Shown piece by piece: positions 6,001 through 9,000 of a DNA stretch of 64,000 nucleotides. Position 1 is the first letter of the stretch; each line of letters starts with the position of its first letter. Made by a program: the position numbers. The stretch is from NCBI RefSeq assembly GCF_044324875.1, contig NZ_CP172185.1. One strand, written 5' to 3'. Source of the stretch: Escherichia coli (GTDB lineage: Bacteria; Pseudomonadota; Gammaproteobacteria; Enterobacterales; Enterobacteriaceae).

Positions 6001-9000
6001 GCCCGGCGTGAAGCAGTGTTTTGCCCTCGTTTAGTTCGCTGATAAGTGAAGAAGCCGGTTGCACATCCAGCCAGTGTGGACGAGCACGACGAATTTGTTC
6101 GATAACCGCAGCATTGGCTTGCGCCACTGATGTAAACATGGGAACCCCTTATTGCAAACGTTCTAATAAACGAGCCAGTTTTTTATTGCCGCCGGCGACT
6201 GGCGACCATTGGTAATGCACAACCGGTTTGCTGGCGCTTTGTAGCTCCAGCGCAAAGCTGCGTAATCCGATGTTAATCACGGCGACGTTTTCCAGTAATG
6301 ACGGTGTGTGTTGCTGTGCGGCAGGCGAGAGCGGATGAATTAACGCTGCCGCCAGCAAGGTGGCTTCCGGTAGCGAACTCACGACAGCAATCCCCGCATC
6401 TTCCAGCGTGGCGATTTGCTGCGAGCGGCATTGCGGGTCACGTTCGGTACCTGTCACCGTGGCAATGGCGTACAGCGGTTGGCTGTCTGAACGCGCGGCA
6501 CAGGCTTTTTGCCAGGCGCTCACCAGCGAGGCGGCAGGATCGGCGGTCGCACCGAAGCCAATCACGACATCAAGCAGCAACACGCGCACTTGCGGTTTAG
6601 CGCCGAGATCGGCAATTAACAGGTTGCGTAAGGTCGGGTCGATCATCGGATGGGGACGCCCGACGGTGTAAAAATCATCGCCCAGGTCGAGGATCTGATG
6701 TCCGTCGGCGTCGAGCATCATGCCGTGATGATGGGTATCGTCGGCTTCCACGCCAAGGTGTCCGGCAAGTAATCCCGCCGCTTCAGCAGCCAGCGTACCG
6801 CCGGTATACAAACCGCAAATAAATCCGCTGCTGACAGGTGCTATTGCGTTACGTCGCGCCGTGACGCGTGAAAGCAGGCAAGCCAGGCGTGCGGCCTCAT
6901 CCAGCGAGGAGGCAAACCAGACATTTTCGTCGCGGGCCACCGCCGGGGTATAACCTAAAAACAGCGCCACCGTCGGTTTGCCGGTTGCTTTCATGGCCTT
7001 AACAATTTTCAGACGCACAGCTTCGGCAGGTGGTTTTGAAACAAATGCCAGCACTTCGCTTTTCTCGTCTGCACTGAGCATTTCCAGCGCCGTCAGCGCA
7101 CTGATGCCGCCCACTTCACGGCTGAGGTCGCGGCCGCCAAGGCCAATCGCGTGAGTAATTCCCTCCCCTGCCAGCGCAATCTGCGAGCACAGCTCCTGAA
7201 TCCCGGTACCGGAAGCGCCAATGACGCCAATGTTGCCTTCCGGCATCACGTTAGCAAAAGCCAGCGGCGTGCCGGCAATCATCGACGTACCGCAGTCCGG
7301 CCCCATCACCAGCAAGCCTTTTTCCCGCGCGCGGGTTTTAAGTTGGATTTCATCTTCCAGCGTGACGTTATCGGAGAACATCATCACGTTGAGGTTGCGA
7401 TCCAGCGCCTGATTCGCCAGCTCCGCCGCATACTCGCCAGCCACTGAAATCAGCGCCAGACTGGCGTCGGGTAATTTCTGACAGGCACTGTCCCAGCGAC
7501 GCACCTGCGTCAACGCCTGGCTGCTGCCTGAACCCTGCGCCAGTTGTTTTAGCGCCTCTTCAAGCTGTTGCATAATCGCCTGCGCGATCCCCGCATCCGC
7601 CGCTTCGCTACGAATTGCCACGCAAATATCGTTCGGCGTGGCGTTATTAAAATCGTCATGCCAGAAACCTGTCGTCTCTAATAACGCTTTATTGGCGGGC
7701 GTACCCATCATTACAGAAACATCATCAACATTTTCTGATTCGCTTAGTTTTCGTGAAATAATCATTAAACTGACCGAATCCTGAAAACACCCTTTTTTAA
7801 TAAAGGCGTGGATCATAACAACTCCTTAAAAATTGCACCCATGGCAATTGCACGAGCAGTGTTAATGTGGCGATTACGGTATCGATGACAACGAGCAAAT
7901 AAGGTGATGAATATCACACAGGGATTATTAACAAAAGAATTCAAATAACCGCCAGGCTATTACGTGTTATTTTTTAATAAGCGTGGTTGTTTTAAAAACC
8001 AGGTTAAAAGCGAGCGGATTATCAAATAAATTCTAACTATATTTTTTTGCCTGTCTGGATCACATAATCCAGATATTTTCCCTGTATGTTAATTGCAGTC
8101 ATGCTTCACACCGTCGTTAAAAAGGAAGACAGATGAAAATCAGTCGGGAAACACTCCACCAGCTAATTGAGAATAAACTCTGCCAGGCTGGGTTAAAACG
8201 TGAGCACGCTGCAACCGTGGCTGAAGTATTGGTTTACGCCGATGCCAGAGGGATCCACTCTCATGGCGCGGTGCGTGTTGAATACTACGCAGAACGCATT
8301 TCAAAAGGCGGCACCAACCGCGAACCGGAGTTTCGTCTTGAAGAAACCGGGCCGTGTTCGGCAATTTTACATGCCGACAATGCCGCCGGACAGGTCGCGG
8401 CTAAAATGGGTATGGAACATGCCATCAAAACCGCCCAGCAAAAAGGCGTTACGGTGGTCGGTATCAGCCGGATGGGTCACAGCGGCGCAATCTCTTATTT
8501 TGTGCAGCAGGCAGCCCGCGCCGGATTAATTGGTATTTCGATGTGCCAGTCCGATCCAATGGTTGTGCCGTTTGGCGGCGCGGAAATTTACTACGGAACT
8601 AACCCACTGGCCTTTGCCGCGCCGGGAGAAGGCGACGAGATCCTTACCTTTGATATGGCGACTACCGTACAGGCATGGGGAAAAGTGCTCGACGCCCGCT
8701 CGCGTAATATGTCTATCCCGGATACCTGGGCGGTCGATAAAAACGGAGCACCAACAACCGATCCATTTGCAGTTAACGCCCTGCTCCCTGCCGCCGGACC
8801 GAAAGGGTATGGCCTGATGATGATGATTGACGTCCTCTCAGGCGTCTTACTCGGCTTACCGTTCGGGCGACAGGTTAGTTCGATGTATGACGATTTACAC
8901 GCCGGGCGTAATTTGGGGCAATTACATATCGTTATTAACCCGAACTTTTTCTCCTCCAGCGAATTATTTCGTCAACATCTTAGCCAGACCATGCGCGAAT

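What the first reader, a model, noticed from the sequence alone, without database searches (positions are those of the whole stretch)
8054..8073. Perfect inverted repeat TCTGGAT-N6-ATCCAGA upstream of allD
The palindrome lies in the allDCE promoter region, about 60 bp upstream of the allD start. It differs from the AllR operator (TTGGAAAA/TTTTCCAA) found at 20504..20520 and 22054..22070, so it may be the AllS activator site or another regulator site. A nearby direct repeat AATTGCAC x2 (7831..7852) is also present.
Basis: seen in the sequence. Interest (0 to 1): 0.3.

Follow-up and report, generated by a model that had tools for sequence, protein, structure and literature searches.

The report
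Chance palindrome over conserved allD promoter box
The 20-bp palindrome upstream of E. coli allD is real, but only its left half is conserved in other bacteria; that half looks like half of a CRP-type activator site at the -35 region of the allD promoter, not the AllS operator, so the finding is largely ordinary.

Summary
TCTGGAT-N6-ATCCAGA is at 8054-8073, 60 bp upstream of the allD ATG, as reported. Such a repeat is not unusual: 28% of shuffles of this intergenic region contain one.

- **The palindrome is not conserved.** The right arm exists only in Escherichia.
- **AllS binding maps elsewhere.** The EMSA fragment is 7960-8019 and the database-predicted site is centred at 7997.

What is conserved, in about 45 Enterobacterales allD promoters, is an asymmetric box: (TCTG)GATCACA at 8058-8064. 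It always lies 20 nt upstream of a TAnnnT hexamer (TATGTT, 8085-8090).

The box is a near-perfect CRP half-site at a class II position, about -40.5/-41.5 from the inferred start. It mirrors the full CRP site, bound in vitro, of the divergent allF promoter (7901-7920). In E. coli the distal half-site is absent (full-site score 1.5 bits). Most other genera score 7-15 bits.

An LTTR-like palindrome, TTGTTAGA-N5-TCTAACAA, is a better AllS-box candidate. It lies upstream at about -68 and -100.

Verdict: a real sequence whose symmetry is probably incidental. It is not the AllS operator. It overlaps a probable, previously unreported CRP-type activator box. Interest is low to moderate.

The parts
8054..8073 (.). 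The reported perfect palindrome TCTGGAT-cacata-ATCCAGA. It spans -43 to -24 relative to the inferred allD start.
   Evidence: The 60-mer 8034-8093 is identical in 4843 of 5305 E. coli genomes. As a palindrome it is confined to Escherichia.
8054..8065 (+). Conserved asymmetric box TCTGGATCACAT, with invariant core GATCACA at 8058-8064. It covers the left arm plus most of the spacer and is a near-consensus CRP-type half-site (consensus tctaGATCACAttt).
   Evidence: GATCAC(A/G) is present in about 45 Enterobacterales allD promoters, with a 20-nt gap to TAnnnT in all but two (19 and 21 nt). The half-site scores 12.5 of a possible 14.0 bits and is among the top 3 half-sites in 2x64 kb.
8067..8073 (.). 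Right arm ATCCAGA, specific to Escherichia. It lies in the spacer between the -35 region and the -10 hexamer.
   Evidence: The same columns read CAATTTT, TAGATTT, TTAAGTT or TTTAGTT in Citrobacter, Klebsiella and Superficieibacter, and are unrelated in Serratia, Erwinia and Proteus.
8047..8066 (+). 20-mer in CRP register (tt GCCTG tctgga TCACA ta), centre 8056.5, which is -40.5/-41.5. The distal half matches 0 of 5 in E. coli.
   Evidence: The full-site PWM score is 1.5 bits in E. coli. It is 7-15.5 bits in most other genera, where it is the best site within 200 nt.
8085..8090 (+). Inferred allD -10 hexamer TATGTT. The inferred transcription start is about A8097/G8098.
   Evidence: A hexamer of the form TAnnnT lies 20 nt after GATCACA in nearly all orthologues; one locus (L019) has GATGAT at 21 nt instead. 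The start site is an inference and was not mapped here.
8019..8039 (.). Proximal LTTR-like box TTATCAAA-taaat-TCTAACTA, centre 8029 (-68). It is a candidate AllS site and is part of a conserved block spanning 8016-8040.
   Evidence: It has 4 mismatches to TTGTTAGA-N5-TCTAACAA. Its centre is exactly 29 nt upstream of the box G in all Enterobacteriaceae and Budviciaceae sampled. A match this good arises in 3% of shuffles.
7987..8007 (.). Distal box position TTGTTTTA-aaaac-CAGGTTAA, centre 7997 (-100). This equals the centre of the database-predicted AllS site. It overlaps the E. coli-only palindrome TGGTT-N8-AACCA (7984-8001).
   Evidence: Conversion of -181 from the allF ATG. It is the same position at which Serratia, Erwinia and Pantoea carry a near-perfect TTGTTAGA-N5-TCTAAyAA. 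It lies inside the AllS EMSA probe 7960-8019.
7901..7920 (-). Full CRP site of the divergent allF (fdrA) promoter, TGTGTGAtattcaTCACC, centre 7910.5. That is -41.5 from the inferred allF start at about 7869. The inferred allF -10 hexamer TACCGT runs 7881 to 7876 on the minus strand.
   Evidence: Footprint-seq Table 1 lists 'allD / fdrA' with Kd 9.8 nM. It has the top PWM score of the whole window, 19.4 bits. TGTGA-N6-TCACn-N21-TAnnnT is conserved.
7922..7949 (.). Conserved block next to the allF CRP site, GGATTATTAACAAAAGAATTCAAATAAC. It contains a half copy of the LTTR-like box and coincides with the ArcA site predicted at -117.
   Evidence: ArcA prediction and ArcA-P EMSA probe 7899-7958 are from PMC12535856.
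7831..7853 (.). It is really part of AATTGC-N7-GCAATT in the inferred allF leader, just upstream of the allF ribosome-binding site.
   Evidence: It is conserved in Enterobacteriaceae. RNA folding is not better than shuffles (z -0.14) and covariation is negligible.
8133..9182 (+). allD (ureidoglycolate dehydrogenase), the first gene of allDCE.
6149..7816 (-). fdrA (allF), the divergent operon.

Best explanation
The palindrome is not the functional unit.

**The conserved element.** Its left arm and spacer (TCTGGATCACAT, 8054-8065) form a deeply conserved, asymmetric promoter box. The box overlaps the -35 region of the activator-dependent allD promoter. It is the promoter-proximal half of a CRP-type (TGTGA-N6-TCACA) site centred at 8056.5. 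That is about -40.5/-41.5 from the inferred start (-10 hexamer TATGTT at 8085-8090), the position from which CRP-family activators contact RNA polymerase at class II promoters.

**Symmetry with allF.** The divergent allF promoter is built on the same plan, with a complete CRP site that is bound in vitro (7901-7920, -41.5).

**AllS.** AllS, which allD expression requires, most likely binds further upstream. The candidates are LTTR-like boxes related to TTGTTAGA-N5-TCTAACAA, centred at about -68 (8019-8039) and -100 (7987-8007).

**The right arm.** ATCCAGA arose by a few substitutions in the Escherichia lineage, in the spacer between the box and the -10 hexamer. Its complementarity to the left arm is most simply a coincidence.

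**Shown:**
- the sequence itself;
- lack of conservation of the right arm;
- invariance and fixed spacing of the box;
- the near-maximal CRP half-site score;
- published in-vitro CRP binding at the allF-side site;
- the published AllS probe excluding the palindrome.

**Inferred:**
- the allD start site;
- that CRP, rather than another protein, reads the box;
- that the upstream boxes are AllS sites.
For: **Conservation**
- Alignment of 20 Enterobacteriaceae intergenic regions shows (A/G)GATCACA invariant. The right-arm columns vary outside Escherichia.
- GATCAC(A/G)-N20-TAnnnT recurs in almost all of the ~45 loci from Escherichia to Proteus, Providencia and Budvicia (two have a 19- or 21-nt gap), although the flanks differ.

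**CRP character of the box**
- A CRP matrix was built from 39 published high-affinity sites, with the local site left out. The proximal half scores 12.5-13.9 of a possible 14.0 bits in all genera with GATCACA (Proteus, with GATCACG or other flanks, scores 1.9-5.2). Only 3 half-sites of at least 12 bits exist in 2x64 kb.
- The full site scores 7-15.5 bits in most non-Escherichia genera, where it is the best hit within 200 nt.
- Distal halves are mildly better than the local background: 13 of 26 fall in the top quartile.

**Parallel with allF**
- The allF side has TGTGA-N6-TCACn-N21-TAnnnT.
- That site is a published in-vitro CRP site with Kd 9.8 nM and is the top-scoring site of the window.
- The same preprint states that the weakest CRP sites rely mainly on a single half-site.

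**Related taxa**
- Wohlfahrtiimonas carries an FNR-type TTAAT/C-N4-ATCAA palindrome at the homologous position.

**AllS placed elsewhere**
- AllS probe and predicted motif.
- The LTTR-like palindrome lies exactly 29 or 61 nt upstream of the box in all taxa.

**Chance**
- Expectation for such a palindrome is 28%.
Against: - In E. coli the distal half-site (GCCTG) matches 0 of 5, and the full-site score is only 1.5 bits. About 200 positions in the window score as well. CRP binding there would be weak, and no CRP binding or crp dependence of allD is reported in the papers I could read.
- The gap to the -10 hexamer is 20 nt, against 21 nt at allF and at canonical class II promoters.
- The allD start site is inferred, not measured. 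Rintoul et al. 2002, which mapped the promoter, is not held in the library.
- The 14-mer CTGTCTGGATCACA is shared by Escherichia, Superficieibacter, Pantoea and Serratia. This hints that bases outside the CRP half-site are also constrained, which a pure CRP half-site does not explain.
- Within E. coli the whole 60-mer, including the right arm, is almost invariant. A lineage-specific role for the right arm therefore cannot be excluded.
Confidence: 0.5

Rival explanations
1. The box or palindrome is the promoter-proximal activation site (ABS) of an AllS tetramer. The tetramer's recognition site would be the upstream LTTR-like box at about -68. On this view AllS itself touches the -35 region, so the reader is right in substance although the palindromic symmetry is irrelevant.
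For: - AllS is required for allD expression (Rintoul 2002 as cited in PMC12535856).
- LTTRs typically occupy about -65 plus -35/-45 (general knowledge of the family).
- The candidate recognition box at 8019-8039 lies 29 nt upstream of the conserved box, about three helical turns centre to centre.
- ATCACATAATCC (8059-8070) resembles ATCAAATAAATTC (8021-8033) in E. coli.
Against: - The box bears no resemblance to TTGTTAGA/TCTAACAA.
- In Serratia, Erwinia, Pantoea, Proteus and Providencia the good LTTR-like box lies 61 nt upstream, too far for one tetramer to reach the GATCACA box. Yet the box is just as conserved there.
- At the AllS-dependent allF promoter the equivalent position holds a bona fide full CRP site.
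- LTTR activation sites are normally the least conserved part of an LTTR site. Here the box is the most conserved element.
- The match to the motif of the AllS paralogue YdhB is no better than chance.
Confidence: 0.2
2. The complete palindrome is a genuine operator, specific to Escherichia, for an unidentified dimeric regulator. One candidate is the still-unknown factor that restricts allD expression to anaerobiosis or nitrogen limitation. The operator would be superimposed on the older box and cover -43 to -24.
For: - The 7+7 symmetry is perfect.
- It is invariant in sampled E. coli variants, whereas substitutions occur in the flanking T-run and next to the -10 hexamer.
- The 60-mer is identical in 91% of E. 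coli genomes.
- The regulator for anaerobic and nitrogen control of allD is stated to be unknown.
Against: - Such a palindrome is expected by chance in 28% of shuffles.
- There is no second copy anywhere in the allantoin cluster or the window.
- E. whittamii already breaks it (ATCCAGT).
- The whole 117 bp proximal to allD is equally invariant in Escherichia, so conservation of the right arm is not specific.
- I could recall no known E. coli regulator consensus that fits. LexA, FNR, NarL, LacI-type, MerR-type and the SoxS marbox were considered from memory.
Confidence: 0.1
3. The box is read by a protein other than CRP or AllS. Candidates are another CRP/FNR-family member (FNR, or the orphan YeiL) or sigma-70 region 4 acting on an unusual -35-like element (ATCACA, 4 of 6 matches to TTGACA).
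For: - allD is expressed only anaerobically.
- Wohlfahrtiimonas has an FNR-type site at this position.
- ATCACA resembles TTGACA.
Against: - The discriminating base is invariably C (TCAC, CRP-type) rather than A (TCAA, FNR-type) in all Enterobacterales.
- No FNR site was predicted by Kim & Kim.
- A 20-nt spacer is too long for a sigma-70 -35/-10 pair (general knowledge).
Confidence: 0.12
4. The repeat works as a nucleic-acid hairpin. It could be an intrinsic terminator on the + strand or an RNA leader structure.
For: The terminator-like scan flagged 8052-8075 followed by TTTTCCCTGT. The DNA hairpin has a free energy of -4.9 kcal/mol, z -3.3.
Against: - No gene ends upstream on the + strand; fdrA is on the other strand.
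- The stem has only 3 G-C pairs and the T-run is poor.
- The repeat lies upstream of the inferred start, so it is probably not transcribed.
- Complementarity is absent in other genera.
- There is no Rfam match.
Confidence: 0.02

Closest known systems
Class II CRP-dependent promoters (such as galP1 and melR), and the adjacent allF/fdrA CRP site
   Same: - It has a TCACA half-site with consensus flanks (aGATCACAtt).
- The site centre is about -41 from a TAnnnT -10 hexamer.
- There is no recognisable -35 hexamer.
- The mirror-image allF promoter carries a full site that is bound in vitro with Kd 9.8 nM.
   Different: - In E. coli the distal half-site is completely missing (0 of 5).
- The gap to the -10 hexamer is 20 nt rather than 21.
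- No binding or genetic evidence exists for this site.
LysR-type regulator sites (recognition site at about -65, activation site at about -35/-45), here AllS
   Same: The element lies in an AllS-dependent promoter, at the position where an LTTR activation site would fall. A T-N11-A pair exists (T8054...A8066).
   Different: - Its symmetry is 7-N6-7, not a T-N11-A dyad.
- It is unrelated to the conserved TTGTTAGA-N5-TCTAACAA boxes.
- It lies outside the published AllS probe.
- As a palindrome it is not conserved.
AllR (IclR-family) operators of the same regulon
   Same: Both are short perfect or near-perfect palindromes in promoters of the allantoin cluster.
   Different: The AllR operators read TTGGAAAA-N-TTTTCCAA and share no sequence similarity with this palindrome. 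AllR has no effect on the neighbouring allF promoter.
MerR-type promoters (dyad inside a 19-20 bp spacer)
   Same: There is an unusually long and strictly conserved 20-nt distance between a -35-like ATCACA and the -10 hexamer.
   Different: The dyad is centred on the -35 region (-33.5), not on the middle of the spacer (about -22). The dyad is also not conserved.

Membership tests
AllS (LysR-type) operator | Bound by AllS in vitro | tested here: not met
   The only AllS-shifted probe available is -203/-144 from the allF ATG, which is window 7960-8019. The database motif centre is -181, which is 7997. The palindrome 8054-8073 lies outside both. The palindrome has not been assayed directly, so binding is unproven rather than excluded.
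AllS (LysR-type) operator | Conserved in orthologous AllS-dependent promoters | tested here: not met
   The right arm is absent outside Escherichia.
AllS (LysR-type) operator | LTTR box: an interrupted dyad of T-N11-A form | tested here: not met
   The palindrome is 7-N6-7, centred between two bases. The conserved T-N11-A-type dyad of this region is TTGTTAGA-N5-TCTAACAA, at 8019-8039 and at the 7987-8007 position.
AllS (LysR-type) operator | Position of a recognition site (about -65) or an activation site (about -35/-45) | tested here: inconclusive
   The palindrome centre at -33.5 and the box at -39 to -33 would suit an activation site. However, the start site is only inferred from the conserved TAnnnT.
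CRP binding site | 16-bp core TGTGA-N6-TCACA with both half-sites recognisable | tested here: not met
   In E. coli the proximal half matches 5 of 5 plus flanks (12.5 bits) and the distal half matches 0 of 5 (-11.1 bits), giving 1.5 bits in total. The feature is met in many other genera at 7-15.5 bits.
CRP binding site | Class II position, centre about -41.5 from the start | tested here: inconclusive
   The centre 8056.5 is -40.5/-41.5 from the inferred start 8097/8098. The gap to the -10 hexamer is 20 nt, against 21 nt at allF. The start site has not been measured.
CRP binding site | Protection by CRP-cAMP in vitro, or crp dependence in vivo | not testable with these tools
   Footprint-seq Table 1 lists only sites below 10 nM. 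The full list of 1,217 regions is not held.
Intrinsic (rho-independent) terminator | G+C-rich stem followed by a U-run, at the end of a transcription unit | tested here: not met
   The stem has 3 G-C pairs and the tail is TTTTCCCTGT. No + strand gene lies upstream.
AllR operator | TTGGAAAA-N-TTTTCCAA-like palindrome | tested here: not met
   Searches show the two real operators. The palindrome shares no half-site with them.
Known RNA family | Match to an Rfam covariance model | tested here: not met
   Only two sub-threshold eukaryotic snoRNA hits were found in 7700-8300.

The most novel reading that the evidence does not exclude
The invariant GATCACA box is not read by CRP. It is read by a different, so far unassigned regulator that supplies the missing anaerobic or nitrogen-limitation switch of the allDCE operon, for example the orphan CRP/FNR-family protein YeiL. 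In Escherichia the new right arm would turn the half-site into a symmetric operator with non-canonical spacing for that factor.
Probability: 0.07. Interest if true: 0.6.

Novelty: new member of a known kind. Interest (0 to 1): 0.25.

Why it matters
The regulation of anaerobic allantoin use in E. coli is only partly understood. Kim & Kim (2025) state that the factor restricting allD to anaerobiosis, and the nitrogen signal, are still unknown.

If the conserved box is a CRP-type class II half-site, two consequences follow:
- allDCE would come under catabolite control together with allFGHK.
- The two divergent promoters would share one design: an upstream LTTR-like box, then a CRP-type box, then the -10 hexamer. 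That design is conserved from Wohlfahrtiimonas to E. coli.

The analysis also suggests that the annotated AllS site is only the weaker, distal member of a pair of LTTR-like boxes. This gives concrete targets for mutagenesis.

As a test of the first-stage finding, the value lies mainly in showing that the eye-catching symmetry is probably incidental.

Tried and rejected
- **Rintoul et al. 2002** (the original allD promoter and AllS paper) is not held. The supplements of both key papers are also not held. The measured allD start and the full CRP region list could therefore not be checked.
- **Full-site CRP matrix at the palindrome in E. coli:** only 1.5 bits. A canonical dimeric CRP site in E. 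coli is rejected and only a half-site remains.
- **Motif of the AllS paralogue YdhB/AdnB** (TCAAwAwwwTTGA): the best matches in the intergenic region have 3 mismatches, which is the commonest best match in composition-matched shuffles (290 of 500; a further 111 do better). Uninformative.
- **Other copies in the window:** none for the palindrome or the 12-mer box, beyond chance.
- **Terminator or hairpin reading:** rejected.
- **Rfam:** nothing.
- **Sigma-70 promoter scan:** it found only two minus-strand consensus matches in the region, no more than in shuffles.
- **Literature searches** for CRP or AllS ChIP or SELEX data on allD gave nothing beyond the two papers used.
- **Consensus sites compared from memory only, none fitting:** FNR, NarL, LexA, LacI-type, MerR-type, DnaA box, sigma-54, the SoxS/MarA marbox, Nac and IscR.
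- **RNA structure of the allF leader** around the AATTGCAC repeat: not better than shuffles and almost no covariation.
- **Within-E. coli polymorphism:** it did not discriminate between the arms. Five sampled variants all change bases outside the palindrome.
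Full report
**Observation.** The window is E. coli DNA. The 316-bp stretch 7817-8132 is found in 5307 of 5426 complete E. coli genomes and is 97.2% identical to K-12. K-12 annotation identifies fdrA (allF) at 6149-7816 on the minus strand, and allD, allC and allE from 8133 onward on the plus strand. TCTGGAT-cacata-ATCCAGA occupies exactly 8054-8073 and ends 60 bp before the allD ATG. The direct repeat AATTGCAC x2 lies at 7831-7838 and 7846-7853. The two AllR operators lie at 20504-20520 and 22054-22070.

**Is it more than chance?** Not on its own. A perfect inverted repeat with arms of at least 7 and a spacer of 0-10 turns up in 27.6% of dinucleotide-preserving shuffles of this A+T-rich intergenic region. 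There are 47 such repeats in the 64-kb window. No second copy exists in the window, even with three mismatches. The twelve-base left part also has no meaningful second copy.

**Where AllS has been placed.** Kim & Kim 2025 (PMC12535856) studied this same intergenic region from the allF side. Their database-derived AllS motif is centred at -181 from the allF ATG, which is window position 7997. AllS-containing lysate shifted a 60-bp probe spanning -203/-144, which is 7960-8019. The palindrome corresponds to -238 to -257 and lies outside the probe. The EMSA used crude lysate and a heterologous protein as its only negative control, so it is not strong evidence. It is nevertheless the only mapping available. 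The original Rintoul et al. 2002 paper is not held.

**Conservation.** I fetched 80 allD loci from one genome per species. The divergent fdrA-allD arrangement holds across Enterobacteriaceae, Yersiniaceae, Erwiniaceae, Budviciaceae and Providencia.
- In an alignment of 20 Enterobacteriaceae intergenic regions, the right arm of the palindrome is present only in Escherichia. E. whittamii already has ATCCAGT.
- The left arm and spacer contain the invariant core (A/G)GATCACA.
- The same core, usually as TCTGGATCACATT, is present in Serratia, Erwinia, Pantoea, Rahnella, Budvicia, Pragia, Providencia and Proteus, although the surrounding sequence is unrelated.
- In about 45 loci the box is followed after 20 nt (19 and 21 in two loci) by a hexamer of the form TAnnnT: TATGTT, TATTTT, TACATT, TATGGT or TAAATT.

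I take this hexamer (8085-8090 in the window) to be the -10 element and infer a start near 8097. The palindrome then spans -43 to -24 and the box spans -39 to -33. Even so, the left half clearly belongs to a strongly constrained element.

**What the box looks like.** The box TCTGGATCACAT matches the right half of the CRP consensus (tctaGATCACAttt) in 11 of 12 positions.

On the other side of the intergenic region there is a fully symmetric site, TGTGA-N6-TCACC, within 7901-7920. It is conserved in nearly all loci and lies 21 nt from a conserved TAnnnT hexamer on the allF strand. This site is listed as a new high-affinity CRP site (Kd 9.8 nM, 'allD / fdrA') in the Footprint-seq preprint of Wang, Stringer & Wade (PMC12871828).

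I built a matrix from the other 39 sites of that table. The results were:
- The allF-side site is the best hit in the entire window, at 19.4 bits.
- At the allD box in CRP register (8047-8066, centre 8056.5, about -40.5/-41.5), the proximal half scores 12.5 of a possible 14.0 bits. It is one of the three best half-sites in both strands of the window.
- The distal half (GCCTG) matches nothing, so the full site scores only 1.5 bits in E. coli.
- In most other genera the same register scores 7-15.5 bits and is the best hit within 200 nt: Atlantibacter 14.9, Rahnella 15.5, Providencia 14.1, Budvicia diplopodorum 12.5, Erwinia 11.9 and the Klebsiella group 8.5-9.8.
- Distal halves are only mildly better than the local background.

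The preprint notes that the weakest CRP sites rely mainly on one half-site. In Wohlfahrtiimonas the homologous position carries an FNR-type palindrome, TTAAT/C-N4-ATCAA. Taken together, the two divergent promoters appear to share one design, with a CRP/FNR-type class II site. The allD copy is reduced to its promoter-proximal half in Escherichia.

**Where AllS more plausibly acts.** A 21-bp palindrome of the T-N11-A (LysR) type, TTGTTAGA-N5-TCTAACAA, is perfect in Wohlfahrtiimonas. It has 0-3 mismatches in Erwinia, Pantoea and Serratia.
- Its centre lies exactly 61 nt upstream of the G of GATCACA in those taxa (59-60 nt in Wohlfahrtiimonas).
- Its centre lies exactly 29 nt upstream in Enterobacteriaceae and Budviciaceae. 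The difference is 32 bp, or three helical turns.
- In the window the proximal copy is 8019-8039 (TTATCAAA-taaat-TCTAACTA, centre -68). A match this good occurs in 3% of shuffles.
- The distal position is 7987-8007 (TTGTTTTA-aaaac-CAGGTTAA, centre 7997, -100). That is precisely the centre of the database AllS motif.

This suggests that AllS recognises these boxes and that the annotated E. coli site is the weaker, distal one. The E. coli-only palindrome TGGTT-N8-AACCA that overlaps it is not conserved.

**Other readings.**
- The hairpin is weak as single-stranded DNA (-4.9 kcal/mol). It lies upstream of the inferred start, with no plus-strand gene before it, so a terminator or leader structure is very unlikely. 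Rfam finds nothing.
- Within E. coli the 60-mer around the palindrome is identical in 4843 of 5305 genomes. Five sampled variants all differ outside the palindrome. But the whole 117 bp proximal to allD is equally invariant in Escherichia. This does not single out the right arm.
- An Escherichia-specific operator therefore cannot be excluded, but nothing specifically supports it.

**Verdict.**
- The AllS-operator interpretation is not supported. The hedge 'another regulator site' is right for the left half only.
- The best explanation is a conserved CRP-type activator half-site at the -35 region of allDp. AllS would act from upstream LTTR-like boxes, and the palindromic symmetry would be a lineage-specific coincidence.
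- I hold the negative part (not a conserved palindromic operator, not the mapped AllS site) with about 0.8 confidence.
- I hold the CRP-type identity of the box with about 0.5 confidence.
- The start site, the protein that reads the box and the assignment of the upstream boxes to AllS are inferences that need the experiments listed.

Noticed in passing
window 7901-7920: A complete CRP site (TGTGTGAtattcaTCACC on the minus strand) is the best CRP-matrix hit in the whole 64-kb window, at 19.4 bits. It is conserved across Enterobacterales and sits 21 nt from a conserved TAnnnT hexamer (TACCGT, 7881 to 7876). That is the class II position for the allF (fdrA) promoter. It matches the 'allD / fdrA' site (Kd 9.8 nM) of a 2026 Footprint-seq preprint. 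The 2025 allF regulation paper does not mention CRP.
   Followed up: yes
window 8019-8039 and 7987-8007; loci L021, L041, L043, L044, L045: An LTTR-like palindrome, TTGTTAGA-N5-TCTAACAA, lies at a fixed 29 or 61 nt upstream of the GATCACA box in all taxa. It is perfect in Wohlfahrtiimonas. The annotated E. coli AllS motif centre (7997) coincides with the distal position but retains only the left half-site. The better E. coli copy is the proximal one at -68, which lies almost entirely outside the published AllS EMSA probe (one base, 8019, overlaps).
   Followed up: partly
window 7984-8001: The palindrome TGGTT-N8-AACCA under the database AllS motif is imperfect in K-12 (TTGTT...AATCA). It is not conserved in Citrobacter, Klebsiella or other genera.
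   Followed up: partly
window 7831-7853: The direct repeat AATTGCAC x2 is part of an inverted repeat, AATTGC-N7-GCAATT, just upstream of the allF ribosome-binding site. It is conserved in Enterobacteriaceae. As RNA it folds no better than shuffles (z -0.14) and shows almost no covariation. It could be a protein site in the allF leader.
   Followed up: partly
window 8097-8132: The inferred allD leader (…CACCGTCGTTAAAAAGGAAGACAGATG) is almost invariant across Enterobacteriaceae genera. It is far more conserved than the centre of the intergenic region.
   Followed up: no
L087 (E. coli GCEC19, NZ_CP137765.1): An IS1 element is inserted with its junction inside the palindrome. Only …CACATAATCCAGA remains next to allD, so the conserved box and everything upstream have been removed from the allD promoter in this strain.
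   Followed up: partly
L032 about 2830-2960 (Serratia sp. Ag1); L018 upstream region (Klebsiella spallanzanii): About 125-bp insertions containing …CACCCCAGTCAC…CTCCTGGGGA… lie in the fdrA-allD intergenic region. From memory they resemble ERIC/IRU repeat elements. In L032 the insertion sits between the inferred -10 hexamer and the allD ATG.
   Followed up: no
L009, L012: Contigs labelled Chryseobacterium sp. 18061 and Sporobacter termitidis MAG carry fdrA-allD-allC-allE loci nearly identical to Citrobacter and Klebsiella-type sequences. They are probably mislabelled or contaminated assemblies.
   Followed up: no
L048, L055, L059, L061, L063, L066, L067 and others: Many Bacillales carry two tandem allD paralogues (about 62-68% identity to E. 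coli AllD). Their gene order is allC-allE-allD-allD-fdrA, all on one strand, unlike the divergent enterobacterial layout.
   Followed up: no
L044, L045 (Wohlfahrtiimonas), about 75-90 nt upstream of allD: An FNR-type palindrome, TTAAT/C-N4-ATCAA, occupies the position of the enterobacterial GATCACA box. It lies 22 nt upstream of a (G/C)ATATT hexamer.
   Followed up: partly
window 22117-22130: A small palindrome, CTGAT-AA-ATCAG, lies in the allA-allS intergenic region upstream of allS. It was not examined further.
   Followed up: no
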